Assembly (NCBI GenBank): GCA_025451195.1
Contig: JANWKV010000017.1
Coordinates: forward strand, 2,471-66,470
From: Candidatus Microgenomates bacterium
GTDB taxonomy: Bacteria > Patescibacteriota > Microgenomatia > Levybacterales > UBA12049
Reading direction: 5' to 3'
Length of the DNA stretch: 64,000 nt
Shown: positions 1,600 to 40,052 of the stretch, piece after piece
How the letters are laid out: each line of letters starts with the position of its first letter
Position numbering within the stretch: the first letter of the stretch is position 1
Made by a program: the position numbers and the translations under genes
The notes under the pieces: generated by a model
The model's database searches: none
What the model was told of the DNA's origin: nothing
What the model saw: only the letters and a program-made list of their open reading frames with translations

Positions 1600-1716
1600 C
1601 ACTATTGACAAACTGTTTTTTTATTTGTATCATTAAAAAAATGAAAAGCGCAAATATTGTATTAACAACAACTACAACACCTTTTTAGAGGGGGCTGTAG
1701 TTTATGTGCAAATTAC

Positions 1717-1739
1717 GACCTCCGCAAGGAGGTTTTTTT
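1717..1739 (+). terminator. Rho-independent terminator (CCTCC-GCAA-GGAGG followed by T7)
   Basis: A GC stem, a 4-nt loop and a 7-T run lie about 120 nt after tRNA-Val. Confidence 0.55.
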
Positions 1740-1826
1740 GTGGTTTACCCTCTGTCGCTAAAGCTATGGAGGGTTCAGAAACTCTAAAACTCGTGAAACT
1801 CGTTAAGAGTTTATAGAAAAAACGAT

Positions 1827-2744
1827 ATGAAACACATAAAAATAATGAAATTTGGGGGAGCGTCTTTAGCAAATGGGGAAAGAATTCTCCGCGTGGCAAA
1901 GATTGTCAAGAAAATGAATAAGAAAGCCAGCTTAGTCATTGTTGTATCTGCTATGTCAAACGTTACAGACGCATTAATATCTGTATTTAGCAAATATAAA
2001 GAAGGGGATATTTCAAGCGCGTTTGATGAAATGAAATACTTATATGAAATTCATAGTAATGCTTTGTTATATTTTAAATTAGGGAAGAAGGAGAATGATC
2101 TTGCAAATCTAGTACTAAGAAACTTATTTGGAAATTTAAGTTTATATTTGACTCTTCATAGAGAATATAGCATTGCGAATTACGATTATGTTGTTTCATT
2201 TGGAGAAAGATTTAGCGCGTGTCTCGTAAGTTTTGCTCTAATTGAAAAAAATGCAAACGCAGTAGCAATTGACGGCTCATCTGTTATTATTGCAAATCAC
2301 AAATTTAATAACGCAAAAGCGTTATTGGAAGATACAAGGAAAGCGGCTGTGAAAAAATTGCTTCCACTTCTCAAAAGGGATTTTATACCTGTTGTCACTG
2401 GTTTTTTTGCTGCAAATAAAAAAGGCTCTGTTGTTACTTTGGGACGGGGAGGATCAGATTATAGCGCCACTGTTTTAGCAAATGCACTTGATGCTAAGGA
2501 GGTTATCTTATGGAAAGAGGTAAACGGAGTATTCAGTTGTGATCCAAAAAATAATTCACAGGCTATATTTTACCCAAAGCTTTCTTATGAAAAAGCTTCG
2601 GAACTCGCAAAAAATGGAGCAAAAATTTTACATCCTGAGGCTATGAAACCGGTTTCTTCCAAAAAAATTGTTGTTTGGGTTAAAAATACTTTTAATCCAA
2701 AATTCGCAGGGACTAAAATTTATAGCATGGAGGAAAACATATGA
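1827..2744 (+). CDS. lysC: Aspartate kinase; short form (305 aa) without obvious ACT regulatory domains
   Basis: Amino-acid kinase fold: KFGGASL…VVSAMSNVTDAL, GRGGSDYSAT. First gene of an asp-to-thr cluster. Confidence 0.8.
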   Translation: MKHIKIMKFGGASLANGERILRVAKIVKKMNKKASLVIVVSAMSNVTDALISVFSKYKEGDISSAFDEMKYLYEIHSNALLYFKLGKKENDLANLVLRNLFGNLSLYLTLHREYSIANYDYVVSFGERFSACLVSFALIEKNANAVAIDGSSVIIANHKFNNAKALLEDTRKAAVKKLLPLLKRDFIPVVTGFFAANKKGSVVTLGRGGSDYSATVLANALDAKEVILWKEVNGVFSCDPKNNSQAIFYPKLSYEKASELAKNGAKILHPEAMKPVSSKKIVVWVKNTFNPKFAGTKIYSMEENI

Positions 2745-3739
2745 AAAATCTTTACTTAATACACCTAGGCATTGGTCATGTTGGATCGGAATTGGTTTCC
2801 CAAATTGAAAGACAAAATGAAAAAATCTCGAAAATTTTTGGTGTTAATCTTGTGTATAAAAATAAATTTACTTCGAAAAATTCTGAGGAGGAAATAAATA
2901 AATCAATTCAATCTGTTTCTTTACCTTTTGTAATAATTGACACAACATCTTCTGATAAAACTACTCCATACATTCTGTCTGCCTTAAACCGCGGGGGATT
3001 TATCGTATTGGCTAACAAAAGACTGCTTGCAGGAAAACTTAAAGACTTTCAGGAAATTTATAAATATGGATACAAAAGGATTTTACACGAAACAACAGTT
3101 GGTGCTGGACTTCCTGTTATTGAAACCATTAGGCAAATGATTTCAACCGGTGATGAAATAATTTCTATAAACGGATGCTTTAGCGGAACGCTTGGATTTA
3201 TTTGTTCGGAAATCGAAAAGGGGAGAAAATTTTCCGATGCTGTTTTTGAAGCCAAGCAAAAAGGGTTTACAGAATTTGATCCCAGGGAAGACCTATCTGG
3301 TAATGATGTTGCCAGAAAAGTATTAATTTTGGCAAGAATGATGGGTAAAAAAATAGAACCGGAACAGATTAATATTGAGCCTTTATATCCAAAAATGTTA
3401 GCAAAATGTAGCGTTGAGGAGTTTATGGAAAAAGTTAAAATTCTTGATGAAGAATACAAAGAAAAGGTTGAAAAAGCTGTAAAAAAAGACAAAGTACTTC
3501 GATTTGTCGCTGGAATATCAGAAAAAGGGTGTTTTGCCAAATTAACAGAAGTGGAGAAAAAAAGCGCGATTGGATCACTTGAAGGACCAGATAACATAAT
3601 TGTTATTAAAACCAAAAGATACTTTAACCGGCCAATTATTATTCAGGGCCAGGGCGCCGGAGTAGAAGTAACCGCGGCCGGTGTTTTTGGAGATATTTTG
3701 TTGATTGTAAAAAGTATTGGAGGGACCGAAAGCGTATGA
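2741..3739 (+). CDS. hom: Homoserine dehydrogenase
   Basis: N-terminal Rossmann GIGHVGS and a homoserine dehydrogenase catalytic domain (…TVGAGLPVI…, GAGVEVTAAGVFGD). Its start overlaps the lysC stop by 4 bp. Confidence 0.85.
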   Translation: MKNLYLIHLGIGHVGSELVSQIERQNEKISKIFGVNLVYKNKFTSKNSEEEINKSIQSVSLPFVIIDTTSSDKTTPYILSALNRGGFIVLANKRLLAGKLKDFQEIYKYGYKRILHETTVGAGLPVIETIRQMISTGDEIISINGCFSGTLGFICSEIEKGRKFSDAVFEAKQKGFTEFDPREDLSGNDVARKVLILARMMGKKIEPEQINIEPLYPKMLAKCSVEEFMEKVKILDEEYKEKVEKAVKKDKVLRFVAGISEKGCFAKLTEVEKKSAIGSLEGPDNIIVIKTKRYFNRPIIIQGQGAGVEVTAAGVFGDILLIVKSIGGTESV

Positions 3740-4809
3740 AAAAAATAAGAGTTGGAATACTCGGAGCAACAGGAATGGTGGGACAAAGATTTATTCAGCT
3801 GCTTGAAAACCATCCGTGGTTTGAAATCAATTGCGTTGCAGCATCACCTCAATCTGCGGGGGAAAAATATGCCGACGTTGTTTCCAAACGTTGGTGCTTT
3901 AATTCCAAAATACCCCGTGCAGTGAAAAATTTAAAAATTTATGCGGTAATTGAGGATATTATAAAAATTACAAAATTGGTAGATTTTGTTTTTTGCGCAT
4001 TGGATTTGGAAAAAGATGAGATCAGAAAAATCGAAGAAAAATATGCAAGTCTTGGAATACCTGTTGTGTCAAACAATTCCGCAAACAGATGGACCAAAGA
4101 CATCCCGATGATAATGCCGGAAATTAATCCAAATCATATAAAACTTATTGATATCCAGAAAAAAAATAGAGGTTGGAAAAAAGGATTCATTGCTGTCAAA
4201 CCGAACTGTTCAATTCAATCGTATGTATCCATCTTAACAGCATTGAAAGATTTTTTACCAAAAAAAATTAATGTTGTCAGTCTTCAAGCAATATCTGGAG
4301 CAGGAAAAACTTTTAAATCTTGGCCGGAGATGGTCGACAATTTAATTCCATTTATAGGAGGGGAAGAGGAAAAATCGGAAAAAGAACCTCTTAAGATCTG
4401 GGGAAAATTAAAAAATGGAAAAATTGAACAAGAGCGTCTAAAAATTTCCGCGACTTGCATAAGGGTACCCGCCTCTGATGGGCATATGGTTTCTGCCAGT
4501 GTAAAATTTGTGAAAAAACCATCAAAGAATGAGTTTATAGAAGCAGTTTTAAACTTCAATCCCCTTGAAAAATTAAATTTGCCCTCTTCACCCAAACAAC
4601 TTATTACATATTTTGAAGAGGAAAATTTTCCGCAAACTAATTTGCATAGAAATTTGGAAAATGGAATGGGAATTTCCATGGGAAGATTGCGGGAAGACAA
4701 TGATTTTGATTATAAATTTATTGCACTTTCCCACAATACAATCCGAGGAGCAGCAGGTGGAGCAATTTTAACTGCCGAACTTTTAGTTAGGAAAGGATAC
4801 ATTTTATGA
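3736..4809 (+). CDS. asd: Aspartate-semialdehyde dehydrogenase
   Basis: VGILGATGMVGQRF Rossmann fold; Asd-type C-terminal domain (…IALSHNTIRGAAGGAIL). Confidence 0.85.
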   Translation: MKKIRVGILGATGMVGQRFIQLLENHPWFEINCVAASPQSAGEKYADVVSKRWCFNSKIPRAVKNLKIYAVIEDIIKITKLVDFVFCALDLEKDEIRKIEEKYASLGIPVVSNNSANRWTKDIPMIMPEINPNHIKLIDIQKKNRGWKKGFIAVKPNCSIQSYVSILTALKDFLPKKINVVSLQAISGAGKTFKSWPEMVDNLIPFIGGEEEKSEKEPLKIWGKLKNGKIEQERLKISATCIRVPASDGHMVSASVKFVKKPSKNEFIEAVLNFNPLEKLNLPSSPKQLITYFEEENFPQTNLHRNLENGMGISMGRLREDNDFDYKFIALSHNTIRGAAGGAILTAELLVRKGYIL

Positions 4810-5441
4810 TAATTTCTTTTATTGGAATGTCCGGCGTTGGAAAAACATATTGGTCAAAAAAACTTGAAAAAAAGGGATTTAAGCGGTTTTGCGTGGACGA
4901 AATGATTGAGGAAAAACTAAAATCCGATCTTAAAAAATTTGGATATAAAGGAATTAAAGACGTCGCAAAATGGATGGGTCAACCTCTTGATAACAAGTAT
5001 AAGCAAACAAGTAAAAAATATCTTAAGTTTGAGGAAGAGGTTATGCAAGAAATTATTAACTATTTAGAAACAAGGACAAATAGCGAAAGAGTTGTTGTAG
5101 ATACCACTGGCAGTTTAATTTATACAGATAAATCTTTGCAAAGACACCTAGCTAAAAATTCAAAGGTTGTATATTTACATGCTCCAAAATCTGTAAAAAG
5201 AGAAATGGTTATCCGTTACGTTAAAGAGCCAAAACCAATATATTGGGGAAATTTAGCTAAAAATAAGAAAGTCCACAAAACACGAGAATTTCTTATTAAA
5301 GAATACCCAAAGCTTTTGGAATATAGAACAAAAAAATATCAGAAAATTGCTGAGATTTTCTTTGATTATCATTTAATAAGGCATAAAAATTTTACAGAAG
5401 ATGTTTTAATAGATGTTTTAAAAAAATATGATCAAATATAA
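4806..5441 (+). CDS. P-loop NMP/shikimate-kinase-fold small-molecule kinase; sits in the position normally held by homoserine kinase
   Basis: Walker A ISFIGMSGVGKTY at the N-terminus. 211 aa. Overlaps asd and thrC by 4 and 14 bp. Confidence 0.6.
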   Translation: MIISFIGMSGVGKTYWSKKLEKKGFKRFCVDEMIEEKLKSDLKKFGYKGIKDVAKWMGQPLDNKYKQTSKKYLKFEEEVMQEIINYLETRTNSERVVVDTTGSLIYTDKSLQRHLAKNSKVVYLHAPKSVKREMVIRYVKEPKPIYWGNLAKNKKVHKTREFLIKEYPKLLEYRTKKYQKIAEIFFDYHLIRHKNFTEDVLIDVLKKYDQI

Positions 5442-6963
5442 AAGCACTAGGGGATACAAAAAAATATTTACGTTTTCAGAAGCAATTCTAAAAGGAATTG
5501 CCCCAGACGGAGGGCTTTTTGTGCCGGAAAGAATTCCACAATTTTCCTTGATTGATTTAAAAAATCTACAAAGCAAATCATACGACCAAGTTGCAAATTT
5601 TGTGATAAATCTTTTTGAACCGGACTTTTCAAAAAAAGAAATAGCACGAATGACGAAAAAAGCTTACGCCTACGGCGAAAATTTTGATGATAAAGAGATT
5701 GCACCTATTGTGCATTTAAAAGAAAATCAATATATTTTAGAACTTTGGCACGGATCAACATGGGCATTTAAAGACATGGCCTTGCAATTAATGCCCTTGC
5801 TTTTTTCTTATGCGATAAAAAAGGATAACAAAAAGCGCGTCTCAAGAAAAGAAAAACCACTCCAATACCTTATACTTGTTGCAACATCAGGTGATACGGG
5901 AAAAGCAGCTCTAGAAGGCTACAAGAGTAAGGACGACATTTCAATTATTGTTCTATTCCCAGATAAAAAAATCTCTTCAATTCAAGAGTTATCAATGACA
6001 ACCCAAGAGGGAAATAATCTTGCCGTGTATCCATTGCTTGGTAATTTTGACGACACTCAGAGGATTGTTAAAGAAATTTTTGATGATAAAAAATTCAACA
6101 AAAAGCTATTTAATGATTTTCAGACTACATTAAGTTCGGGTAATTCAATTAACTGGGGTCGCTTTCTCCCGCAAGTTATATACCATATAAGCAGCTATGT
6201 TAACTTAATAAGTCAGAATGTTATAAAAATTGGCGATGAGATTGATATTGTAGTTCCAACTGGAAATTTTGGAAATATTCTGGCAGGTTTTATTGCAAAA
6301 AAAATGGGCTTACCAATTAGAAAACTTGTTTGTGCATCAAATGATAACAATGTTTTATCAGAATTCATTCAAACAGGTAATTATGACCTTACTAAAAGAA
6401 AACTTGTGGTAACTTCGAGTCCTTCAATTGATATTCTCGTTGCAAGCAATTTAGAAAGACTTTTATATTTAATAACAAACAATTCTAATAAGATTAAACT
6501 ATGGATGAGGCAGTTAAAGTCAAAAAAGAAGTTTTTTGTAGATGACAATACTAAAAAGGTTTTGCAAAAAGAATTTTATGCGGACTGGGTTTCTGATAAA
6601 GATTCTTTAGAAAATATAAAAAATATTTTTGAACAATGTGATCGTCTGATTGACCCACATACGTCTATTGCGCAAAAAGTTGCTCAAGAATACATCAATA
6701 ATTACAACGTTAAATTGCCAATAATCATTCACTCAACAGCACACTTTGCAAAATTTGCAAGCGCGGTTTATTCAAGCTTATTTAGAAACAATCCAGAAAA
6801 ATTAAGTGAATTTGAGATGCTTAAAGCAATCAAAAAGTTATCAAAAAAAATTAAAATTCCTAGAAATATAGAAGATTTAAAGTCAAAAAAAATAATTCAT
6901 AAAGGAATATTAAATTCAAATAAAAAGGATGCCGAACGTGCTATTATTAGCATATTAAACTGA
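5428..6963 (+). CDS. thrC: Threonine synthase (long, 511 aa, PLP-dependent)
   Basis: N-terminus KYKSTRGY…GGLFVPE typical of ThrC; the pyridoxal-phosphate lysine lies in the WHGSTWAFKD context. Confidence 0.85.
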   Translation: MIKYKSTRGYKKIFTFSEAILKGIAPDGGLFVPERIPQFSLIDLKNLQSKSYDQVANFVINLFEPDFSKKEIARMTKKAYAYGENFDDKEIAPIVHLKENQYILELWHGSTWAFKDMALQLMPLLFSYAIKKDNKKRVSRKEKPLQYLILVATSGDTGKAALEGYKSKDDISIIVLFPDKKISSIQELSMTTQEGNNLAVYPLLGNFDDTQRIVKEIFDDKKFNKKLFNDFQTTLSSGNSINWGRFLPQVIYHISSYVNLISQNVIKIGDEIDIVVPTGNFGNILAGFIAKKMGLPIRKLVCASNDNNVLSEFIQTGNYDLTKRKLVVTSSPSIDILVASNLERLLYLITNNSNKIKLWMRQLKSKKKFFVDDNTKKVLQKEFYADWVSDKDSLENIKNIFEQCDRLIDPHTSIAQKVAQEYINNYNVKLPIIIHSTAHFAKFASAVYSSLFRNNPEKLSEFEMLKAIKKLSKKIKIPRNIEDLKSKKIIHKGILNSNKKDAERAIISILN

Positions 6964-7685
6964 TGAGAAATAAAATGAAACACATTGGAATTGCGGGAAT
7001 TACAGTGCCAGGTTCTCTACTTTGTATTAATACAATAGTTGAAGAAAGTTATAAACATTTTGGAAAAAAATCCATGATTCATCCCAGAATAACTTATACT
7101 AATCCTCCCTTTATTGACGTAGAAAAACCAATGGTGGAAAAAAAATGGGATCAAGTTGCGAAAGACTTATTGCTTTCTATTGATATTTTATATAGGGCTG
7201 GAGCTGATTTTGTTATTATTCCATCAAACCACCCTCATTACGCGATTGAAGAAATTCAACGAAAATCTCCTATTCCAGTTCTTAGCATTCTCGATATAAC
7301 TACTGCGGAATGCAGAAAAAGAAAGTTTAAAAAAGTAGGAATTTTGGGTGTAATTGGAACAATGGCCGGTGGACTATATATAGAACCGCTCAAAAAACAA
7401 GGACTTGAACCTTTGAATTTATCGCCTAAAAGGCAAAAAGAATTTAGTGATTTGATTTTCAATGAAATTATAATCGGCAAACCAGATAAAACAATCGGGG
7501 ATAAGATGCGAATTTTTATTCAAGAACTTAAAGATATGGGGGCAGATAGTTTTATAGCAGGTTGCACAGAGATACCTGTTGTTATTGCCAGCGAAAGTGA
7601 ATCACCTTTACCTTTTATCGATACGACAAGACTTTTGGCAAAAAAAGCATTAGAATACGCAATAGAAACAAAGCAAGAGAACTAG
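6963..7685 (+). CDS. Asp/Glu/hydantoin racemase-family protein (aspartate racemase-like)
   Basis: Asp_Glu_race fold. The first catalytic-Cys position reads PSNHPH (Ser, not Cys). The second, AGCTEIPVV, is intact. Confidence 0.65.
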   Translation: MRNKMKHIGIAGITVPGSLLCINTIVEESYKHFGKKSMIHPRITYTNPPFIDVEKPMVEKKWDQVAKDLLLSIDILYRAGADFVIIPSNHPHYAIEEIQRKSPIPVLSILDITTAECRKRKFKKVGILGVIGTMAGGLYIEPLKKQGLEPLNLSPKRQKEFSDLIFNEIIIGKPDKTIGDKMRIFIQELKDMGADSFIAGCTEIPVVIASESESPLPFIDTTRLLAKKALEYAIETKQEN

Positions 7686-7698
7686 TATAATATTACTT

Positions 7699-9468
7699 AT
7701 GGATAATCAAGATAAACAAAAATTAGAACATCTCAGACATTCCAGCGCCCATCTTTTAGCTGCAGCTGTAATTGACATTTGGCCACACGCCAAACAAACA
7801 ATCGGACCTGCGATAGAAAACGGGTTTTATGAGGATTTGGATTTGGGAGATATAAAAATTTCAGAGAAAGATTTTCCAAAAATTGAGCAGAAAATGCATG
7901 AAATAGTTAAAGGCTGGAAACAATTTGAAAGGATTGAAGTAAATAAAGAAGAGGCGTTAAAAGCTTTTTCAAAAAATGAATATAAACACGAACTCATTGA
8001 AGAATTTGCCAAGGATGGCAAAATCTTAACTATTTATAAATCAGGAGATTATGTAGATCTTTGCCGCGGAGGGCATGATATGGATCCGTCAAAAGATATT
8101 AAACATTTTAAACTTACGAAAATTGCCGGAGCATACTGGCGGGGATCGGAAAAGAACAAAATGTTAACAAGAATCTACGGGACTGCTTTTTATACAAAAG
8201 AAGATTTGGATAATTACTTAAAAATGCAGGAAGAAGCCGAAAAAAGAGATCATAAAAAAATAGGAAAAGAACTTGAGCTTTTTATATTTTCAGAAACATC
8301 TCCCGGGATGCCATATTTCTTGCCAAAGGGACTAATTGTTTTTAATGGACTACTAAATTTTTCAAGAAAAATGCATAAAGACTTTGGTTATGACGAAATC
8401 ATGACGCCTGTTATGTCCAAAAAGGCATTATACGAATCCTCCGGGCATTGGTTTCATTACAGAGAAGATATGTTTATTTCTCCAATGAGTTATCTTCGCA
8501 AGGATTCAAAAGACCCGTACGAGGGACAGGAAGTATTTGGCATAAAGCCCATGAATTGTCCCAATGCAATGACTGTTTTTGGATCAAAAACGCGAAGCTA
8601 CAGGGATTTGCCGATGCGGCTTGCAGAGACAACTGTTCTCCATAGATTTGAGCTTTCAGGAACACTGAATGGACTTTTTAGAGCAAGGGAATTTCATCAG
8701 GATGATTCTCATACATTTTTAGCGATTTCTCAAGTGGGGGAAGAGTTTGAAAAAATAATGGAAATGATTTCAATCTCTTATAGAGCATTTAATTTAAAAT
8801 ACAAGCTTAGATTTGGTACCAGACCGGAGAATTTTATGGGAGAGAGTAAAGACTGGGACATCGCAGAAAAAGAACTGCAAAAAGTTTTGGACAAATCCGG
8901 AGTTGAGTATTTTGTCGCCGAAGGTGAGGGAGCATTTTACGGACCAAAGGTAGATATTCTCATGAAGGATTCACTAGGCAGGGAATGGCAAACAGGTACA
9001 ATTCAACTTGATTTTCAGCAACCGAAGAATTTTAAACTTAAATATACAGATAACGAAGGTAAAGAAATTCAACCTGTTGTTTTCCATAAGGCAATTCTTG
9101 GATCGTTTGAGAGATTTATGGCTATTATTATTGAAGACTTGGAGGGTAAATTACCATTATGGCTTTCGCCTGTTCAGGTAGCGCTTTTGCCAATTACGGA
9201 CAGACACGAAGAATTTGCGAAAACCATAAGCGATCAACTAAAAACTATGGGCATTCGGACCATTGTTGACAGCAGCAAGGAAAGGCTTCAGGCCAAAATT
9301 CGTAACCACACTTTACAACGAACCCCGATTTTAGGTATAATAGGAGATAAAGAAATTGAGCAGAATGGTCTTTCCGTCAGAAGTAGAGATGGAAAAGACT
9401 TGGGGTTTCAAAAAATTGACGATTTTGTAGGTTTTTTACAAACACAAATTGATAAAAAGGTTTCATAG
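7699..9468 (+). CDS. thrS: Threonyl-tRNA synthetase (no N-terminal TGS domain)
   Basis: HSSAHLLA editing-domain motif, class II catalytic core, C-terminal anticodon-binding domain. Confidence 0.9.
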   Translation: MDNQDKQKLEHLRHSSAHLLAAAVIDIWPHAKQTIGPAIENGFYEDLDLGDIKISEKDFPKIEQKMHEIVKGWKQFERIEVNKEEALKAFSKNEYKHELIEEFAKDGKILTIYKSGDYVDLCRGGHDMDPSKDIKHFKLTKIAGAYWRGSEKNKMLTRIYGTAFYTKEDLDNYLKMQEEAEKRDHKKIGKELELFIFSETSPGMPYFLPKGLIVFNGLLNFSRKMHKDFGYDEIMTPVMSKKALYESSGHWFHYREDMFISPMSYLRKDSKDPYEGQEVFGIKPMNCPNAMTVFGSKTRSYRDLPMRLAETTVLHRFELSGTLNGLFRAREFHQDDSHTFLAISQVGEEFEKIMEMISISYRAFNLKYKLRFGTRPENFMGESKDWDIAEKELQKVLDKSGVEYFVAEGEGAFYGPKVDILMKDSLGREWQTGTIQLDFQQPKNFKLKYTDNEGKEIQPVVFHKAILGSFERFMAIIIEDLEGKLPLWLSPVQVALLPITDRHEEFAKTISDQLKTMGIRTIVDSSKERLQAKIRNHTLQRTPILGIIGDKEIEQNGLSVRSRDGKDLGFQKIDDFVGFLQTQIDKKVS

Positions 9469-10809: not shown

Positions 10810-12498
10810 TTGATAAATCCACCCAGTTTTAATATAATACGACAAATGAAAAAGGAGGAACCTGTAGGTAGAACTAGGACACCTGGAACCGAGACAGAAA
10901 CGCAAAAACAAAGAGGTTTAGTAAAAACAGCCTCTGTTTTATCTTCAACTGGAGCATTATTAGATATACCAAGTAGAACGGTTGACTTTATTGCGGATGT
11001 TATTAGATATGGCGTAGATAAAAAGGAAGATTTTAGTCCTTACATTTCAAAAAGACGGGGCTGGAAAAGATTTGCTGCAAACATTCACGAAAACATTGCA
11101 GATCTGGATGATTACTTAAGTGGAGACGTAACTTATAAAGATATTGCAGCTAAAAGAAAGGTTGACGAAACTGCAATAGAACAGCGTATTCAAAAGACAC
11201 TTTATTTTTTGCGTGATGTTCTCTTAGCAACTCTTCCAGAAAGTATTCGATCTCAAAAAAGTATTGATTATGCGGTCTTACACGTAAGACATTTTCAAGA
11301 AACCCAGAGAAGAAGGCGCGAAGAAGCTGGAATAACCCCAACAACAAGAGTAAGACACTTTGACCAAACCGAAAGACTTCTTCAAATTGCACAAAGATCA
11401 AGTGAACTTGCAAGCCAGGGCTTGTCAAATACGCAAATTGCAAAAGCACTCCAACAAGATTTTCCCGGACTTAATGAGAACGCAATTAGATATGCTGAAA
11501 AACAATGGGCAGCAAGACAACAAGCGATAGCAGAAATGCCATTTGCCGATAAAGAACGCTTTGCAAACGGTTTAACGCTTATCAGACAACAAATAGAACA
11601 AGGATTATTCTTCCATCCGGATTTTACAGTTTATTCATTTATACGCGATGCGATACATTTCAACCTGGATAAAATTTTACTGAGCACACCCGTACAAATA
11701 AAAGCATTACGAAATATTCCGCGCATGATGGCAAATTTTGAAGGAGCAATAGGCCAGCACATGAGTACACCCGAGCTGGCAAAAGCTCAAGGGGTAACCG
11801 CCCAAAATATTTTGGAAGATGTTAAAAACCTAACCGAATTTTTACTTCGCTCAATGCCCCAAGAATTACAACAATGGTATAGAGGACAGGGATTAAGACT
11901 ACCAGGCCAACATGGGGACAGAACATTAATTCCAACTGCTGAGCAAAGGATTTTATGGAATAGACGCTATGAAGATCATGTTACAAGTTTTGAAGCCTCG
12001 CAAGAATTTTCTTCTCCTGAAGAATCAAGACAAACCGAACAGGATATACAGAGAATTGCTCTTCAGAAAATATTCCTTGCAGTATCTAAATCTGTCCCGG
12101 GAATTGCCATTTTCACTTATCAAATACCAACATTTGGTGTTAATCAAGAAATTCAAAATCCCCGCATAGGGTTTGTTTCGCGCGAGGATATTGCAATGGA
12201 AGATACACAAAACCTTTCCCACGAAGCACAAGTAGCTCTTGCCAAAGTTATGGGTGTAATTAGAAGTTCTCCTTCAACTCCTTCGTCAAGAGATAATGAC
12301 ACAATAGAAATTAATGAAAACCCTGGCGAAAATAACCAATTTACAAATCAACGGATGAAACGCGTTATTATAGCTATCGAAACTTCACGATGTAATTTTA
12401 CAAAAGACGAAAACGGTAATCTTATTGTCACAAACAAGAATGGTAACAAACTAACATCCTCGGAAGAAATAAGAAAAGTTATAGAATTGATTAGATAA
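10810..12498 (+). CDS. Hypothetical 562-aa protein with three sigma-70 region-4-like HTH modules, inserted between rplT and pheS
   Basis: HTH-like segments: YKDIAAKRKVDETAIEQRIQKTLYFL, GLSNTQIAKALQQDF…IRYAEKQ, MSTPELAKAQGVTAQNILEDVKNL. The protein is Q/R/A-rich and its GC content is visibly higher than its neighbours. Confidence 0.5.
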   Translation: MINPPSFNIIRQMKKEEPVGRTRTPGTETETQKQRGLVKTASVLSSTGALLDIPSRTVDFIADVIRYGVDKKEDFSPYISKRRGWKRFAANIHENIADLDDYLSGDVTYKDIAAKRKVDETAIEQRIQKTLYFLRDVLLATLPESIRSQKSIDYAVLHVRHFQETQRRRREEAGITPTTRVRHFDQTERLLQIAQRSSELASQGLSNTQIAKALQQDFPGLNENAIRYAEKQWAARQQAIAEMPFADKERFANGLTLIRQQIEQGLFFHPDFTVYSFIRDAIHFNLDKILLSTPVQIKALRNIPRMMANFEGAIGQHMSTPELAKAQGVTAQNILEDVKNLTEFLLRSMPQELQQWYRGQGLRLPGQHGDRTLIPTAEQRILWNRRYEDHVTSFEASQEFSSPEESRQTEQDIQRIALQKIFLAVSKSVPGIAIFTYQIPTFGVNQEIQNPRIGFVSREDIAMEDTQNLSHEAQVALAKVMGVIRSSPSTPSSRDNDTIEINENPGENNQFTNQRMKRVIIAIETSRCNFTKDENGNLIVTNKNGNKLTSSEEIRKVIELIR

Positions 12499-18433: not shown

Positions 18434-19276
18434 ATGATTTCAACTAAATTACGAAGAAAAATTATAATTGCAGGGCCTTGTGGGGCAGAAACAAAGGAAC
18501 AAATTGAAGATTCTGTGCGTGAAGCTAAGAATCTCCAGGTTGATTTTTTACGGGTAAATCTTTGGAAGCCACGCACAAAACCAGGTTTTGAAGGATTACA
18601 AAAAGAGGGATTGGAACTTATGATCGCGGCCGCAAAAGCCGGAATTACACCTGGCACAGAAGTTATCATGCCTCAGCATGCAAAACTTGTTATAAAACAT
18701 GTGCTGGCGGCAACAAAAAACGGTAAAGTGCTTATCTGGATTGGAGCGCGCAACCAGAACCATTTTATCCAAAGAGAAATATCAAAAATTGCATCCAAAA
18801 ACAACAGAGTTATTCTTATGGTAAAAAATCAAATCTGGCATAACGAAAAACACTGGGAAGGAATTGTGGAACATATCATGTCAGGCGGGATTAAGAAGGA
18901 AAACCTGTTACTTTGCCATAGGGGATTTGCGCCAATTGGAGAAAATCCAAACGGCTACAGGAATGTTCCGGATTTTGACATGGCAATGAGAATAAAAGAA
19001 AAAACGGGAATTCCCATGATTTTTGATCCATCCCATACAGGAGGAAGTATTGAAAAAGTATTTAAAATTTCACAAGAGGCGGATAACTTCGACTTTGACG
19101 GATACATGGTAGAAGTTCATCCAAATCCTAAACAAGCCTTGTCTGATGCAGATCAGCAATTAACATGGACTCAATTTAAATTGTTGCTCAAAGATCTATA
19201 TAATAGAAGAGTGGAGAAAACCAAAAGCCCTGATAAATTTTTAAGTAAAATTATTTATGAAAAAATTGTTAATTAA
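18434..19276 (+). CDS. 3-deoxy-D-arabino-heptulosonate-7-phosphate synthase (DAHP synthase), type I-beta, unfused
   Basis: IIAGPCGAE, KPRTKP, IGARN, LCHRG, DPSH and VEVHPNP…ALSD motifs are of the DAHP synthase/KDO8P synthase I-beta family. KPRT (not the KANRSS of KDO8PS) and the aro context favour DAHP synthase. Confidence 0.8.
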   Translation: MISTKLRRKIIIAGPCGAETKEQIEDSVREAKNLQVDFLRVNLWKPRTKPGFEGLQKEGLELMIAAAKAGITPGTEVIMPQHAKLVIKHVLAATKNGKVLIWIGARNQNHFIQREISKIASKNNRVILMVKNQIWHNEKHWEGIVEHIMSGGIKKENLLLCHRGFAPIGENPNGYRNVPDFDMAMRIKEKTGIPMIFDPSHTGGSIEKVFKISQEADNFDFDGYMVEVHPNPKQALSDADQQLTWTQFKLLLKDLYNRRVEKTKSPDKFLSKIIYEKIVN

Positions 19277-20342
19277 CATTAAAGAGCAAAAGCAGGTTTC
19301 TTATCCGATTTTTATTGGAGAGGATATCCTTTTTAAAATAACGTCTCTTTGTGATTTGTCTAAATATTCAAAAATTGCCGTTGTAACCGATAAAGTAGTA
19401 GAAAAATTACTTCTTAAAAATTCAAGGCAGTTTTTGCCGGAAAATTCTTTTATTATCGTTTTACCATATGGTGAAAGAGCAAAAAATATAGACTGTGTTG
19501 AAGAAATATGGAGGGAATTATTTGAAAACGGATGTGACAGAAAATCAATTGTTATAAATATCGGCGGGGGAGTAATTACAGATATCGGCGGATTTGCGGC
19601 AAGTACTTACATGCGTGGAATTCCATTTATAAATGCACCGACAACTCTTCTTTCTCAGGTTGATGCAAGTATTGGCGGAAAAACAGGAATAAATTTTAAT
19701 GAAATAAAAAATCTGGTTGGCACTTTTGACCAACCAAAAGCAATTATTATTGATACCTCTGTTTTGAAAACTTTGCCGGAAAGAGAATTTGTTTCAGGAT
19801 TTGGGGAAATAATTAAACATGGTCTTATTTCGGATAAAAATTATTTTGAATACGTTACCTCAAAAAAGCCTTATGAATTTACACAGGAAGAACTGGTTGG
19901 AATTATCGAAAAATCCTGCGAACTAAAAGGATCGTTTGTAGGAGAGGACGAGAAAGAAGGAGAATTAAGAAAAACTATAAATTTTGGCCATACTATTGGC
20001 CATGCTCTGGAAAGCTTAAGTTTTGAGACAGACAAACCGCTTACTCATGGCGAAGCAATAAGCATTGGCATGGTTGCAGAATCTTACATTTCGGTTTTTA
20101 CGAATTTATTAAAAGAAAACGAAATTGGAATAATTAAAAATGGCTTTGTTCATGCGGGCTTGCCAATAAGTTACAAGAACATCGATGAAAAAAGGGTTTT
20201 GGAAAAAATTAAGGGCGATAAAAAAAATGAGAGAGGATTAACAAATTTTACTCTTTTACGGGGAATTGGAAAATCTTTAATAAATCAGAAAGTTAGTTCA
20301 AAAATAATACTTGATGCACTTAAAAAAATAAATGAACTATGA
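19257..20342 (+). CDS. aroB: 3-dehydroquinate synthase
   Basis: GGGVITDIGGFAASTYMRGIPFINAPTTLLSQVDASIGGKTGIN. Confidence 0.85.
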   Translation: MKKLLINIKEQKQVSYPIFIGEDILFKITSLCDLSKYSKIAVVTDKVVEKLLLKNSRQFLPENSFIIVLPYGERAKNIDCVEEIWRELFENGCDRKSIVINIGGGVITDIGGFAASTYMRGIPFINAPTTLLSQVDASIGGKTGINFNEIKNLVGTFDQPKAIIIDTSVLKTLPEREFVSGFGEIIKHGLISDKNYFEYVTSKKPYEFTQEELVGIIEKSCELKGSFVGEDEKEGELRKTINFGHTIGHALESLSFETDKPLTHGEAISIGMVAESYISVFTNLLKENEIGIIKNGFVHAGLPISYKNIDEKRVLEKIKGDKKNERGLTNFTLLRGIGKSLINQKVSSKIILDALKKINEL

Positions 20343-22132
20343 ATATAGAATTATTACCGTTAAAAAATCCCGCGAACATACGGATTAAAATTCCCGGTTC
20401 TAAAAGTTATACAAATAGAGCTCTTATTTTAGCATCTCTTACAAAAGGCGTTGTAGAAATAATAAATCCGCTTTTTTCCGATGATACAAATGCAATGATT
20501 GATTGCCTAAAAACTCTTGGGATAAAAATAAACATTCAGCCGGAAAAAATTGTAGTAGCGGGAGATATTTCTGATGTAAAAAATTCCAGATTTATTCTTA
20601 ATGCAAATTTATCGGCAACTACGATAAGATTTATTTTAGCTCTTTGCTATTTAACAAAAGGTGAAAAAATCTTAACTGGAAAACCAGGACTTTTAATGCG
20701 CCCAATTAAAGACTTGGTTGACGGCTTGAAAAAACTGGGCGCAAAAATTGTATACCTTGATAAAAAAGGTTTTCCTCCTGTAAAAGTTTTCCCAATGGTA
20801 TCGGTAATGAAAACAAAAAACATAAAACTAAATGGAAACATAAGCAGTCAATTCTTATCCGCACTGCTTATGACAGCACCTATTCTCGGAGAAATAAAAA
20901 TTGAAGTAGGAAATCTCACATCTATTCCATATGTTGATATGACAATCGAAATGTTAAACCGGTTTGGTATTAATGTTGTAAATGAAAATTACAAAAAATT
21001 TATTGTATTTAAAGATCAAACTTATAAAGCAAACGCTGTTATGATCGAAGGGGATTATTCAAGCGCAACATATTTTGCGGCTGCCGCCGCTATTACAAAA
21101 TCAACGGTGGTTTTAGAAAACCTTAAAACACCTTCTAAACAGGCGGATGCAAAATTTTTTAAAATTCTTGAGGAAATGGGAAATAAAATTACAAGAAAAT
21201 CAAGTGAAATTACCGTTGAAGGAAAAGGCGTTAAGCCTGTTACGGTTGATATGAAAGATTGTCCTGATAGTATCCAAACTTTAGCTGTTTTATCGTCTTT
21301 TGCCAAGGGGCAAACAAAAATTTCCGGGATCCAAACACTGAAGTTTAAAGAAACAAACAGAGTCAACGCAATCGCCAGCCAGTTAAAGAAAATGAAAATT
21401 AAAACAGAAGTTATAAAAAATGTATTAATAATTTATGGAGGAAACCCAAAATCGGCAATTATAAAAACTTATGATGACCATAGAATGGCAATGTCTTTTG
21501 CGGTTGTTGGAAGCAAATTAAATGGAATTATTATAGAAAATCCTAAAGTTGTTGACAAAACTTTTCCATTATTTTGGGAAGAAATTAAAAAATTAGGGAT
21601 TGGCATAAAAAAAATAGAACCGTCTAAACTTGTTCTAATTGGATTTATGGGAGCGGGAAAAAGCTCTGTTGCGCCTCTTTTGGCCAAAAAACTTAACAAA
21701 GAGGCAGTGGAAATGGATCTTATTATAGCTAAAAAGGCAAAAAGAGAGTCAGTTGCTCAAATTTTTGAAAAAGACGGTGAGAAAACTTTCAGATTATTAG
21801 AACTAAAGACAGCAAAAAAGCTCGAGCAAAAAAAAGATATTGTTATTTCAACGGGCGGGGGAGTGATTATGAATAGCAAACTCATGGAACATCTAAAAAA
21901 AGACAGTCTTGTTGTTTTTTTAGATACCGAATTTGAGACTATAAAAAAACGTCTCGCGGATTTTTCTGATAGACCATTATGGAAAAATGAGAAAAAGACG
22001 AAAGAACTTTTTGACACCAGACTTCCTCTTTATTATAAGTACTCTGACTTTATCGTAAAAACAGATGGAAAGTCTTTAGGAATGATTGTTAACGAAGTTA
22101 ATGAAGTTTTTGAAAACTTAGAAAGCTTATGA
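20339..22132 (+). CDS. aroA: Bifunctional EPSP synthase (N-terminal ~425 aa) / shikimate kinase (C-terminal ~165 aa)
   Basis: N-terminus KIPGSKSYTNRALILASL (EPSPS). C-terminus LIGFMGAGKSSVAPLLAKKL…ISTGGGVI (shikimate kinase Walker A and core). Confidence 0.85.
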   Translation: MNIELLPLKNPANIRIKIPGSKSYTNRALILASLTKGVVEIINPLFSDDTNAMIDCLKTLGIKINIQPEKIVVAGDISDVKNSRFILNANLSATTIRFILALCYLTKGEKILTGKPGLLMRPIKDLVDGLKKLGAKIVYLDKKGFPPVKVFPMVSVMKTKNIKLNGNISSQFLSALLMTAPILGEIKIEVGNLTSIPYVDMTIEMLNRFGINVVNENYKKFIVFKDQTYKANAVMIEGDYSSATYFAAAAAITKSTVVLENLKTPSKQADAKFFKILEEMGNKITRKSSEITVEGKGVKPVTVDMKDCPDSIQTLAVLSSFAKGQTKISGIQTLKFKETNRVNAIASQLKKMKIKTEVIKNVLIIYGGNPKSAIIKTYDDHRMAMSFAVVGSKLNGIIIENPKVVDKTFPLFWEEIKKLGIGIKKIEPSKLVLIGFMGAGKSSVAPLLAKKLNKEAVEMDLIIAKKAKRESVAQIFEKDGEKTFRLLELKTAKKLEQKKDIVISTGGGVIMNSKLMEHLKKDSLVVFLDTEFETIKKRLADFSDRPLWKNEKKTKELFDTRLPLYYKYSDFIVKTDGKSLGMIVNEVNEVFENLESL

Positions 22133-22962
22133 ATATAACAGCAACAACTAAAATTTGTTTGGTGATTGGAGACCCGGTTAATCATTCACTCTCTCCTCAA
22201 ATGCACAATACAGCATACGCCGCACTGGGTATTGATGATAAATTTATTCATCTGGCAGCAGAAATAAAAATTGAGAATATTGGCGAAATTGTTAAAGCAG
22301 TAAGACTCCTTAAGATAAGAGGCCTCACGTGCACAATTCCGCATAAGATTACAATCATGAAATACCTGGATAAAATCGACGGAGTCGCGAAAAAGATAGG
22401 CGCGGCAAATTCCATCGTAAATAATAATGGAGTTTTAACGGGATTCAATACTGATTGGGTCGGAGTTTCAAAATCGTTTGAAAATGTAACGCGTGTTAAG
22501 AATAAAAAGGCAGCAGTTATCGGATCCGGAGGGGCAGCAAGGGCGTTTATTTATGCTCTTACCGTAGGCGGAGCAAAAGTAACTGTTTTTACAAGAAACA
22601 TAAAAAATGTTAAAAGTCTTTCTGATGAGTTTGGAGTAAAAATTAAATCTTTTGAACAAATTAGTGAAATTGTAGATGAAGAAATAGTTTGCAACGCAAC
22701 GCCGGTTGGGATGTATCCAAAAATTGATGATTCTATTATTCCTAAAGAATATATAAAGAGAAACCATATTATATTTGACGCTGTTTACAATCCTTTCGAA
22801 ACAAAATTACTAAAAGAGTCGTTGGATAAAGGCGCGACTATTATTCATGGGTATAAAATGCTTCTATTTGAGGCAGCAGAAAAGTTCAAATTGTATACGG
22901 GCTATGACGCTCCAATTGATGTAATGGAAAATGAATTACTTAAAAATTTACAAAATCTATGA
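22129..22962 (+). CDS. aroE: Shikimate 5-dehydrogenase
   Basis: GDPVNHSLSPQMHN substrate-binding motif; GSGGAARA Rossmann fold. Confidence 0.85.
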   Translation: MNITATTKICLVIGDPVNHSLSPQMHNTAYAALGIDDKFIHLAAEIKIENIGEIVKAVRLLKIRGLTCTIPHKITIMKYLDKIDGVAKKIGAANSIVNNNGVLTGFNTDWVGVSKSFENVTRVKNKKAAVIGSGGAARAFIYALTVGGAKVTVFTRNIKNVKSLSDEFGVKIKSFEQISEIVDEEIVCNATPVGMYPKIDDSIIPKEYIKRNHIIFDAVYNPFETKLLKESLDKGATIIHGYKMLLFEAAEKFKLYTGYDAPIDVMENELLKNLQNL

Positions 22963-23636
22963 TTGCAAAATTTTGCTTACCGATTTTAGTAAAAACTAAA
23001 AAAGAAGTTCTGAAAAAAATTACTGAAAATAAAAACCAGTACGATATGTTTGAAGTCTGGATAAGTTCTTTAAAAGAACCTTTTCCGGTTATTCTGGACT
23101 TGATTCAGAACCTTTCTAAAGAACTTCAAGGAAAACTTATAATTGTTTTCAGAGACCGCAACGGAAAAGTTATAATGGAAAAAGACAAAAAGGAAAATAT
23201 ACTTTCTCTTTGTAATAATTCCAAAGTTTTGGTTGATATAGATTTTGAAAACCAAAAAGAAGATTTACAGTTTATAAATATAAACAAGTTAAAAATAAAA
23301 ATTCTCCTTTCTTACCATAACTTTGAAGAGACTCCACATAATTTAATAGAAATAATTGATAGAATGGAAAAAATAAAACCGGAAATAATAAAACTCGCAA
23401 CCAAATGCAATAGCAACACAGATTCGATTAAATTACTTGGACTTTTACTGTTTTGTAAAAAGCGAGGTCTTAAATGCATTGTTTTGGGAATGGGAAAATT
23501 TGGAGTTATTACAAGAATATTTGGCTCTTTATGGGGAAATGAAATCGTTTTTGCGCCGGTTGAAAAAAGGCAAGCAAGCGCATCTGGACAATTAACAGTC
23601 GGACAACTTAAAGATATTTTTGCTATATTAAAATAA
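22959..23636 (+). CDS. aroD: 3-dehydroquinate dehydratase, type I
   Basis: Aligns with type I AroD: SYHNFEETP, catalytic-Lys context LGMGKFGVITRIFG, C-terminus ASASGQLTVGQLKDI. Confidence 0.8.
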   Translation: MIAKFCLPILVKTKKEVLKKITENKNQYDMFEVWISSLKEPFPVILDLIQNLSKELQGKLIIVFRDRNGKVIMEKDKKENILSLCNNSKVLVDIDFENQKEDLQFININKLKIKILLSYHNFEETPHNLIEIIDRMEKIKPEIIKLATKCNSNTDSIKLLGLLLFCKKRGLKCIVLGMGKFGVITRIFGSLWGNEIVFAPVEKRQASASGQLTVGQLKDIFAILK

Positions 23637-23638
23637 CT

Positions 23639-40051: not shown

Positions 40052-40052
40052 A

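What the first reader, a model, noticed from the sequence alone, without database searches (positions are those of the whole stretch)
4806..5441. Shikimate-kinase-fold P-loop kinase occupies the thrB slot of a complete thr operon
The cluster lysC-hom-asd-X-thrC encodes every step from aspartate to threonine except homoserine kinase. Where thrB is expected there is a 211-aa P-loop (NMP/shikimate-kinase-like) kinase, translationally coupled by 4- and 14-bp overlaps. The genome already has a separate shikimate kinase fused to aroA at 20339-22132. The inference is a non-orthologous homoserine kinase. This mirrors the archaeal case, in which a GHMP (homoserine-kinase-like) enzyme replaces shikimate kinase.
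Basis: partly seen in the sequence, partly recalled or inferred. Interest (0 to 1): 0.65.

Follow-up and report, generated by a model that had tools for sequence, protein, structure and literature searches.

The report
Shikimate-kinase-fold homoserine kinase in thr operon
A small P-loop kinase that looks like shikimate kinase sits where homoserine kinase should be in a threonine-regulated threonine operon, and it most likely does that job; the trick is already proven in Desulfovibrio, but this widespread branch of the family is still labelled 'hypothetical' or 'shikimate kinase'.

Summary
ORF 4806-5441 (211 aa) overlaps asd by 4 bp and thrC by 14 bp inside AK-hom-asd-X-thrC. A true shikimate kinase is fused to AroA at 20339-22132.

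X has a shikimate-kinase fold (AF2 pLDDT 93.9; top PDB matches are all shikimate kinases). It keeps the catalytic residues but loses two shikimate-binding features.

Four lines of context evidence point to homoserine kinase:
- 50 of 69 informative non-redundant homologous loci have X directly next to thrC, asd or hom.
- X is fused in frame to aspartokinase-homoserine dehydrogenase, in both orders, and to homoserine dehydrogenase alone.
- Twelve X-containing operons, this one included, follow a Thr-run leader peptide (here MKSANIVLTTTTTPF plus a terminator).
- No GHMP, PGM-like or HAD-type alternative kinase was found in the window.

The idea is not new. Price et al. 2018 showed that the shikimate-kinase-like DvMF_0971 of Desulfovibrio vulgaris is a homoserine kinase. 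The NCBIfam model named for that type (NF040667) is the best curated hit for all 46 family members tested, but far below its cut-off (37.8 vs 197 bits).

X therefore belongs to a divergent, longer, unannotated branch found in Patescibacteria, Acidobacteriota-like and Thermodesulfobacteriota MAGs. Verdict: interpretation supported; new variant of a known kind; moderate interest.

The parts
1605..1633 (+). Promoter-like site (TTGACA, 17-nt spacer, TATCAT) just after tRNA-Val and just before the leader ORF
   Evidence: 11 of 12 consensus matches. This is a consensus match only. The count of such sites in the region is not above the shuffled expectation.
1641..1688 (+). Thr-codon leader peptide ORF, MKSANIVLTTTTTPF, with five consecutive Thr codons at 1665-1679
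   Evidence: Sequence read. The same kind of Thr-run short ORF lies 0-139 nt upstream of the first gene of 12 non-redundant X-containing thr operons. None occurs on the minus strand of the same 607 kb.
1689..1744 (+). Attenuator. GGGGG (1690-1694) can pair with CCUCC (1720-1724) as an antiterminator. Alternatively CCUCC pairs with GGAGG in the terminator hairpin 1717-1734, which is followed by a U-run.
   Evidence: The terminator-like site was found. In the fold, the MFE structure shows the antiterminator pairing and the centroid shows the terminator hairpin (z = -2.29). The attenuation mechanism is inferred by analogy with E. coli thrL.
1827..2744 (+). Aspartate kinase, catalytic domain only (305 aa, no ACT domains)
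   Evidence: AA_kinase 5.8e-49; TIGR00657 6.4e-80.
2741..3739 (+). Homoserine dehydrogenase
   Evidence: Homoserine_dh 4.6e-46 and NAD_binding_3.
3736..4809 (+). Aspartate-semialdehyde dehydrogenase
   Evidence: NF006416 1.8e-139; TIGR00978 1.1e-106.
4806..5441 (+). X: 211-aa P-loop kinase of shikimate-kinase fold, proposed homoserine kinase
   Evidence: AF2 pLDDT 93.9. Foldseek top hits are shikimate kinases. hhalign to shikimate kinases gives 97.9% probability. NF040667 is the best NCBIfam hit (E 1.6e-9).
5428..6963 (+). Threonine synthase (Thr_synth_N + PALP + THR4_C type), the consumer of O-phosphohomoserine
   Evidence: TIGR00260 5.3e-69.
6963..7685 (+). Asp/Glu-type amino acid racemase whose start overlaps the thrC stop. 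Its membership of the pathway is unclear.
   Evidence: Asp_Glu_race 3.4e-29; TIGR00035 1.5e-37.
7699..9468 (+). Threonyl-tRNA synthetase directly downstream. thrS is also adjacent to X-thrC in several other loci.
   Evidence: One search gives the translation. The tblastn context shows thrS next to X in L019, L022, L028 and L030, and downstream of thrC in L023, L065 and L078. The window ORF itself was not run against a family library.
20339..22132 (+). EPSP synthase fused to the genuine shikimate kinase (residues 437-589)
   Evidence: EPSP_synthase 1.6e-110; SKI 4.9e-39; 32% identity to E. coli AroK.

Best explanation
X (4806-5441) is the homoserine kinase of this organism. It is an ATP-dependent P-loop kinase of the shikimate-kinase fold that phosphorylates the gamma-hydroxyl of L-homoserine. 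It is translated from the same Thr-attenuated mRNA as aspartate kinase, homoserine dehydrogenase, aspartate-semialdehyde dehydrogenase and threonine synthase, and it supplies O-phosphohomoserine to the threonine synthase encoded immediately downstream.

Shown here: the fold, the operon position, the recurrence of that position, the fusions, the leader peptide, and the residue pattern.

Inferred, by alignment to shikimate kinase:
- The Walker A Lys13 and the LID residue Lys143 (in place of shikimate kinase Arg117) handle ATP and the transferred phosphate.
- Asp31 (equivalent to Asp34) positions or activates the substrate hydroxyl.
- Arg174 (equivalent to Arg136) binds the substrate carboxylate.
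- Loss of Arg58 (now Leu73), the change of GGG to T101-G102-S103, and a 13-residue insertion (52-64, with invariant W56 and P60) reshape the pocket for the smaller amino acid.
- The invariant Glu76 (equivalent to Glu61) is then free to bind the alpha-amino group.
For: 1. Position. There are 4-bp and 14-bp overlaps with asd and thrC.

2. Neighbourhood. Of 85 non-redundant loci, 50 have thrC, asd or hom directly adjacent (under 260 bp apart, and in most cases overlapping X by a few bases). Another 19 have none, and 16 are too short to tell. That is 50 of 69 informative loci. The window's own clade is fully linked.

3. Fusions.
- P0129 (1031 aa) is AA_kinase-ACT-Homoserine_dh-X and is followed directly by thrC.
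- P0257 (1055 aa) is X-AA_kinase-ACT-Homoserine_dh.
- In-frame homoserine dehydrogenase-X fusions followed by thrC occur in L032, L048 and L041.

4. Co-regulation. Thr-run leader ORFs lie upstream of 12 X-containing operons, including this one. None lies on the opposite strand of the same 607 kb.

5. Fold and residues.
- AF2 pLDDT is 93.9.
- Foldseek PDB top hits are all shikimate kinases.
- hhalign to shikimate kinases gives 97.9% probability. K13, D31, E76 and R174 are retained, R58 becomes L73, and GGG becomes TGS.
- Among these, K13, D31, E76, G102, S103 and R174 are invariant across all 69 linked and unlinked loci. L73 and T101 are nearly so.

6. The closest curated family is the Desulfovibrio-type homoserine kinase model NF040667. 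It hits 46 of 46 members (best E 3.7e-15), against 16 of 46 for AroK (best 5e-6).

7. Precedent. DvMF_0971, a shikimate-kinase-like protein, complements E. coli thrB- (PMC5764234).

8. A genuine shikimate kinase exists elsewhere in the window.

9. The window holds no GHMP, PGM-like or HAD-type candidate.
Against: There is no biochemical or genetic test of this protein or of any member of its family.

The score against the validated family model is far below the cut-off (37.8 vs 197 bits), so orthology to DvMF_0971 is not established.

19 of 69 informative loci show no thr gene within the DNA held. Most of these form one clade whose one named close relative is a Thermodesulfobacteriota MAG, and there the LID Lys is often His.

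Only 64 kb of the genome could be checked for another homoserine kinase.

Substrate-contact roles come from a profile alignment, not from docking or model coordinates.

Shikimate-kinase homologues are not homoserine kinases in general. The Phaeobacter shikimate kinase PGA1_c14090 failed to complement thrB-.
Confidence: 0.85

Rival explanations
1. X is a second, divergent shikimate kinase (an AroK/AroL-type isozyme) that merely happens to lie in the thr operon.
For: It has the shikimate-kinase fold, and the best PDB matches are shikimate kinases. Pfam SKI scores exactly at its gathering threshold. JGI annotates many homologues as shikimate kinase.
Against: The shikimate carboxylate-binding Arg58 is Leu, and the GGG shikimate-binding loop is TGS. 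AroK and AroL NCBIfam scores are 22-25 bits against cut-offs above 160. A bona fide shikimate kinase (SKI 4.9e-39) is fused to AroA in the aro operon. X is never seen in aro context; instead it is linked or fused to thr genes and lies under Thr leader control.
Confidence: 0.04
2. X phosphorylates a different thr-pathway-related small molecule. One candidate is L-threonine, as PduX does for cobalamin synthesis. Alternatively it acts as a regulatory or moonlighting kinase, and homoserine kinase is encoded elsewhere in the genome.
For: The whole genome was not visible. About a quarter of family members are not linked to thr genes. Substrate identity is inferred only.
Against: The operon otherwise lacks exactly one step. 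Threonine synthase of this type needs O-phosphohomoserine (established pathway knowledge). The fusions are to homoserine dehydrogenase, the enzyme that makes homoserine. No cobalamin genes were seen in the window.
Confidence: 0.07
3. X is a generic nucleotide or NMP kinase-like ATPase (an adenylate, dephospho-CoA or gluconate kinase relative) with a housekeeping role.
For: There are weak hits to AAA_18, AAA_33 and AAA_28. Dephospho-CoA kinases and adenylate-kinase-like proteins appear lower in the Foldseek list.
Against: Those matches are weaker than the shikimate-kinase and NF040667 matches. The family-specific invariant residues map to the shikimate-kinase substrate site. Thr-specific context and fusions are not expected for a housekeeping kinase.
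Confidence: 0.03

Closest known systems
Desulfovibrio-type homoserine kinase related to shikimate kinase (DvMF_0971; NCBIfam NF040667 hom_kin_desulfo; Price et al. 2018, PMC5764234)
   Same: Both are P-loop shikimate-kinase-like proteins. The proposed activity here is the one proven for DvMF_0971. In both cases a separate true shikimate kinase exists in the genome. NF040667 is the best curated hit for all 46 members tested.
   Different: The score is only 33-49 bits against a cut-off of 197. X-family proteins are about 205-225 aa against a 163-position model, with a 13-residue insertion in the substrate-binding subdomain and a longer C-terminus. X is usually inside thr operons or fused to thrA-like proteins. 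I could not obtain a DvMF_0971 sequence for a residue-level comparison.
Shikimate kinase AroK/AroL (Pfam PF01202)
   Same: The fold is shared (Foldseek E about 1e-7, TM 0.52-0.61 normalised to the query; hhalign 97.9%). Walker A, Asp34, Glu61, Arg136 and the LID Pro equivalents are kept.
   Different: Identity is 15-18%. Arg58 becomes Leu, GGG becomes TGS and LID Arg117 becomes Lys. There is an extra segment carrying the WMGQP motif. The genomic context is thr, not aro.
Canonical GHMP homoserine kinase ThrB (E. coli b0003)
   Same: X occupies the same operon slot, between the homoserine-forming enzymes and thrC, and has the same proposed reaction. The AK-HD-X fusion followed by thrC mimics the E. 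coli order thrA-thrB-thrC.
   Different: The fold is unrelated. There is no GHMP motif and no detectable similarity.
Other proposed ThrB replacements: PGM-like ThrB2 (TIGR02535, BT2402) and ThrH of Pseudomonas
   Same: Both are non-orthologous fillers of the homoserine kinase step that were identified largely from thr-operon context (PMC7311316, PMC9026213).
   Different: Their folds and chemistry differ (a phosphomutase-like or HAD-like phosphotransferase, against an ATP P-loop kinase).
Archaeal GHMP-type shikimate kinase
   Same: This rests on established knowledge and was not tested here.
   Different: The direction of the swap is opposite, and there is no sequence relationship to X.

Membership tests
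Shikimate kinase (AroK/AroL, PF01202) | P-loop Walker A motif and the shikimate-kinase (NMP-kinase-like) fold | tested here: met
   GMSGVGKT at residues 7-14. AF2 pLDDT 93.9. Foldseek PDB top 26 hits are shikimate kinases or a design based on one. hhalign gives 97.9%.
Shikimate kinase (AroK/AroL, PF01202) | Shikimate-binding residues Arg58 and the G79-G80-G81 loop (M. tuberculosis numbering) | tested here: not met
   Arg58 aligns to Leu73, which is Leu in 46 of 50 linked and 17 of 19 unlinked loci. GGG aligns to T101-G102-S103, which is invariant or nearly so.
Shikimate kinase (AroK/AroL, PF01202) | Curated model score | tested here: inconclusive
   Pfam SKI scores 22.1 bits, exactly at the gathering score. 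NCBIfam AroL scores 21.9 against a cut-off of 161, so that one is not met.
Shikimate kinase (AroK/AroL, PF01202) | Being the only shikimate kinase, or lying in aro context | tested here: not met
   A genuine SKI domain (4.9e-39) is fused to AroA in the aro operon. X is in thr context in 50 of 69 informative loci.
Desulfovibrio-type shikimate-kinase-like homoserine kinase (NF040667) | Score at or above the curated cut-off (197 bits) | tested here: not met
   The window protein scores 37.8 bits, and the 8 family members whose scores were printed range 32.6-48.8 bits. For the 46-member alignment only E-values were returned (best 3.7e-15). It is nevertheless the top NCBIfam hit for 46 of 46 members.
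Desulfovibrio-type shikimate-kinase-like homoserine kinase (NF040667) | Complementation of E. coli thrB-, or threonine-rescued auxotrophy of mutants | not testable with these tools
   This was shown only for DvMF_0971 (PMC5764234).
GHMP homoserine kinase (ThrB) | GHMP ATP-binding motif (PxGSGLGSSA) and similarity to ThrB | tested here: not met
   tblastn with E. coli ThrB found nothing at E < 1e-3 in the window or in 91 related loci. A motif search of the window's six frames found nothing.
PGM-like ThrB2 (TIGR02535) / ThrH | Phosphoglycerate-mutase-like metalloenzyme domain, or HAD phosphoserine-phosphatase-like domain | tested here: not met
   X has only P-loop kinase hits. No such domain was found in any window ORF scanned.
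Functional class: homoserine kinase (EC 2.7.1.39) | Conserved co-localisation, fusion and co-regulation with the thr pathway | tested here: met
   50 of 69 loci are linked. AK-HD-X, X-AK-HD and HD-X fusions exist. Thr leader peptides lie upstream of 12 operons.
Functional class: homoserine kinase (EC 2.7.1.39) | No other homoserine kinase in the same genome (phyletic complementarity) | tested here: inconclusive
   None is present in the 64-kb window or in the flanks of the related loci. Whole genomes could not be searched.
Functional class: homoserine kinase (EC 2.7.1.39) | ATP-dependent phosphorylation of L-homoserine | not testable with these tools
   This needs an enzyme assay or complementation.

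The most novel reading that the evidence does not exclude
The X family may be an independent recruitment of the shikimate-kinase fold to homoserine phosphorylation, rather than a sister of the Desulfovibrio enzyme. It would have its own substrate-recognition solution: the WMGQP insertion, the TGS loop, and a free Glu76 for the amino group. It would also be the unrecognised main homoserine kinase of threonine-prototrophic Patescibacteria, Acidoferrum-like Acidobacteriota and many Thermodesulfobacteriota. That would close part of the ThrB gap that GapMind reported as low-confidence in 29 of 148 prototrophs.
Probability: 0.3. Interest if true: 0.6.

Novelty: new variant of a known kind. Interest (0 to 1): 0.45.

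Why it matters
Homoserine kinase is one of the steps most often reported 'missing' in automated reconstructions of amino acid biosynthesis. GapMind found ThrB low-confidence in 29 of 148 prototrophs (PMC7311316). Such gaps feed claims of auxotrophy and cross-feeding, especially for candidate-phyla-radiation bacteria.

This family is large: 1530 clusters at 50% identity with E < 1e-3. No source consulted here names it as a homoserine kinase. Recognising it would turn apparent threonine auxotrophs into predicted prototrophs in several uncultivated lineages.

It would also give a second, structurally distinct example of how the shikimate-kinase scaffold is retuned from a cyclitol acid to an amino acid. 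The Thr-leader attenuators found upstream show that classical ribosome-mediated attenuation operates in these lineages too.

Tried and rejected
1. I spent the single genome-contig scan on the single protein rather than the alignment.

2. I looked for a conserved neighbour in the loci not linked to thr genes. There is none. The largest neighbour clusters have 3 members, and they are unrelated functions. No alternative function is suggested.

3. I looked for a riboswitch or T-box upstream of the operon with Rfam at E <= 0.1. Only tRNA-Val was found. The regulator is instead a leader peptide.

5. I could not obtain a DvMF_0971 sequence. A residue-level comparison and a joint phylogeny with the validated enzyme were therefore not done, and only the NCBIfam HMM score is available.

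6. My first guess was that Glu76 replaces Arg58. I rejected it after hhalign placed Glu76 on shikimate kinase Glu61 and Leu73 on Arg58.

7. The literature searches ('homoserine kinase' with Patescibacteria, with shikimate kinase and non-orthologous, and DvMF_0971) found no paper describing this family.
Full report
**Observation**

Its ATG overlaps the TGA of the upstream gene as ATGA, and an AGGAAAGGA stretch lies 8-16 nt upstream. The ATG of the downstream gene (5428) lies 14 bp inside the ORF.

The neighbours were checked against Pfam and NCBIfam:
- 1827-2744: aspartate kinase, 305 aa, catalytic domain only.
- 2741-3739: homoserine dehydrogenase.
- 3736-4809: aspartate-semialdehyde dehydrogenase.
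- 5428-6963: threonine synthase, with Thr_synth_N and THR4_C domains.
- 6963-7685: an Asp/Glu-type racemase.

The next ORF, 7699-9468, is read as threonyl-tRNA synthetase from its homologues next to X in related loci; it was not run against a family library.

So every step from aspartate to threonine is encoded except homoserine kinase. The only unassigned gene, X, is a Walker-A protein with weak P-loop kinase hits: AAA_18 1.6e-5, and SKI 22.1 bits, exactly at Pfam's threshold.

ORF 20339-22132 is EPSP synthase plus a strong SKI domain (4.9e-39), inside a complete shikimate operon at 18434-26297.

**What X is structurally**

An AlphaFold2 model built on a 46-sequence family alignment (A1) is confident, with mean pLDDT 93.9 and pTM 0.90. 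Foldseek against the PDB returns shikimate kinases as the top matches (3trf, 4y0a, 1kag, 2iyz and others). E is about 1e-7, TM is 0.52-0.61 normalised to the query, and identity is 15-18%. Dephospho-CoA kinases and adenylate-kinase-like proteins appear only further down.

I compared the family profile with an alignment of E. coli AroK, E. coli AroL and the window's own shikimate kinase domain. The profile-profile comparison gives 97.9% probability and E 5.5e-13. The residue map is below. M. tuberculosis numbers follow from my knowledge of that enzyme.

| X residue | E. coli AroK | M. tuberculosis SK | Status |
|---|---|---|---|
| K13 | K17 | K15 | kept |
| D31 | D36 | D34 | kept |
| L73 | R60 | R58 | changed |
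| E76 | E63 | E61 | kept |
| T101-G102-S103 | G81-G82-G83 | G79-G81 | changed |
| K143-P144 | R120-P121 | LID R117 | Arg to Lys |
| R174 | R140 | R136 | kept |

A 13-residue insertion (52-64) carries the invariant W56, G58 and P60.

Across 50 thr-linked and 19 unlinked non-redundant loci, K13, D31, W56, G58, P60, E76, D99, G102, S103, P144, R174 and Y178 are invariant. The phosphotransfer machinery of shikimate kinase is therefore kept, while two hallmark shikimate contacts (Arg58 and the GGG loop) are replaced and the substrate-binding subdomain is remodelled.

**Context evidence for function**

Homologues number 289 in the word-indexed search. In an exhaustive profile search, 1530 cluster representatives score E < 1e-3. 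I collected 91 related loci and located thr genes in them.

After removing near-identical copies, 85 loci remained, counting the window itself:
- 50 have thrC, asd or hom directly adjacent to X (under 260 bp apart), in most cases overlapping it by a few bases.
- 19 have none, despite at least 1.5 kb on both sides.
- 16 are too short to judge.

The window's protein lies in a clade in which every informative locus is linked.

Three kinds of gene fusion exist:
- P0129 (1031 aa) is AA_kinase-ACT-Homoserine_dh-X, and thrC starts at its stop codon. This is a thrA::X-thrC arrangement.
- P0257 (1055 aa) is X-AA_kinase-ACT-Homoserine_dh.
- In L032, L048 and L041 the C-terminus of homoserine dehydrogenase runs in frame into X, again followed by thrC.

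Fusion to the enzyme that makes homoserine is what one expects of the enzyme that consumes it.

**A regulatory link found in passing**

A promoter-like site lies at 1605-1633. Between it and the aspartate kinase start (1827) there is a 15-codon ORF, MKSANIVLTTTTTPF (1641-1688), with five consecutive Thr codons. It is followed by a G-run that can pair with the 5' arm of a terminator hairpin (1717-1734 plus a U-run). This is the layout of a ribosome-mediated attenuator like E. coli thrL.

Thr-run leader ORFs such as MMNRLLQTTTTTTTTTFGG and MTNKQIFTTTTTTTTTTFSG lie 0-139 nt upstream of the first gene of 12 non-redundant X-containing operons. None occurs on the opposite strand of the same 607 kb. 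X is therefore expressed under threonine-specific control in several lineages.

**Other candidates for the step**

tblastn with E. coli ThrB finds nothing in the window or in any related locus. No GHMP motif occurs in the window's six frames. Pfam scans of the other substantial ORFs of the window show housekeeping genes, the shikimate operon, a type IV pilus cluster and argG/argH. They show no GHMP kinase, PGM-like metalloenzyme or HAD-type protein. This covers only 64 kb of the genome.

**Comparison with what is known**

The idea is not new in kind. Price et al. 2018 (PMC5764234) found that mutants of DvMF_0971 in Desulfovibrio vulgaris Miyazaki F are rescued by threonine. That gene was annotated as shikimate kinase. 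It complements E. coli thrB-, while a second, AroL-like shikimate kinase serves the aro pathway.

NCBIfam carries a model for that type, NF040667 (hom_kin_desulfo). It is the best NCBIfam hit for X (E 1.6e-9) and hits all 46 aligned family members (best 3.7e-15). AroK models hit only 16 of 46 (best 5e-6). The scores are 33-49 bits against a cut-off of 197, and the model is 163 positions long against about 210 residues for X. X is therefore not a member of that curated family but its nearest recognisable relative.

No source names any homologue homoserine kinase. NCBI calls them hypothetical and JGI calls them shikimate kinase. My literature searches found no description of this family. Other proposed ThrB replacements (PGM-like ThrB2/TIGR02535, and ThrH) are unrelated folds.

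**Distribution**

Named homologues come from these groups:
- Candidatus Microgenomates, Roizmanbacteria, Doudnabacteria and Spechtbacterales, all candidate-phyla-radiation lineages.
- A GC-rich X-thrC clade (58-61% GC) whose named relatives include Candidatus Acidoferrum.
- A clade whose one named close relative is a Thermodesulfobacteriota MAG.

Most members of that last clade are not next to thr genes, they have no conserved neighbour, and they often carry His instead of the LID Lys. Unlinked thr genes are ordinary in such genomes, so this does not contradict the assignment. It does leave room for a functional shift in that clade.

**Verdict**

X is most likely the organism's homoserine kinase (confidence about 0.85). 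The catalytic mechanism is inferred by homology to shikimate kinase. The substrate assignment rests on neighbourhood, fusion and co-regulation evidence.

It is a divergent, unannotated variant of a kind already demonstrated once. That makes it useful for annotation and for understanding how this fold changes substrate, but it is not a categorically new system.

Noticed in passing
window 1605-1744: A Thr-codon leader peptide (MKSANIVLTTTTTPF, 1641-1688) with alternative antiterminator and terminator pairings lies upstream of the thr operon. This is classical ribosome-mediated attenuation in what is probably a candidate-phyla-radiation bacterium. The promoter-like -10 element ends about 7 nt before the ATG, so the leader mRNA may be leaderless.
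   Followed up: yes
L007, L011, L033, L036, L038, L042, L065, L071, L072, L080, L087 (leader ORF coordinates): Leader ORFs with runs of 5-10 Thr codons (for example MTNKQIFTTTTTTTTTTFSG), many ending in FGG, FSG, ISG or PGG, lie upstream of the related thr operons. Their attenuator structures were not analysed.
   Followed up: partly
window 1827-2744 and 2741-3739: The aspartate kinase is only 305 aa and has no ACT regulatory domains. The homoserine dehydrogenase (332 aa) also lacks an ACT domain. Feedback inhibition by Thr or Lys may therefore be absent, with control left to the leader attenuator. The L003 homologue has the same 304-aa aspartate kinase.
   Followed up: no
window 6963-7685: An Asp/Glu-type amino acid racemase (TIGR00035 1.5e-37) starts on the last base of the thrC stop codon, inside the thr operon. 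Its role there is unexplained, and it was not seen next to thrC in the other loci examined.
   Followed up: no
window 7699-9468; L019, L022, L028, L030, L023, L065, L078: Threonyl-tRNA synthetase is repeatedly adjacent to X-thrC, either directly upstream of X or downstream of thrC. In L028 a Thr-run short ORF (MNSKIKNLLTTTTARVFAVFM) precedes thrS-X-thrC.
   Followed up: partly
L043, L049, L055, L066, L069, L073, L079, L083 and relatives: A clade of the family (43-55% GC; the one named close relative is a Thermodesulfobacteriota MAG) is not linked to thr genes. It has WMGFPY instead of WMGQPY and KPHPMLW instead of PKPVIWG, with the LID Lys replaced by His. This may be a functional sub-type.
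   Followed up: partly
P0247 (379 aa), P0261 (358 aa), P0260, P0252, P0219: Some family members carry N-terminal extensions of 80-170 residues that have no Pfam match.
   Followed up: no
window 20339-22132: EPSP synthase and shikimate kinase are fused into one 597-aa protein, inside a tightly packed aroG-aroB-aroA::aroK-aroE-aroD-aroC-tyrA-pheA operon (18434-26297). Full Thr and aromatic amino acid pathways are unusual for candidate-phyla-radiation genomes.
   Followed up: partly
window 10810-12498; 34019-35232; 37902-39046; 39536-40111; 59424-60143: Several sizeable ORFs have no Pfam match at 1e-5. One is a 562-aa protein between rplT and pheS. Others lie within the type IV pilus cluster (about 34-46 kb, with PilM, prepilin peptidase, PilC and two T2SSE ATPases).
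   Followed up: no
L009 6163-6603 and L010 6636-7082: In two unlinked candidate-phyla-radiation loci, X is followed by a protein of about 146-148 aa with no Pfam hit. I did not test whether the two are homologous.
   Followed up: no
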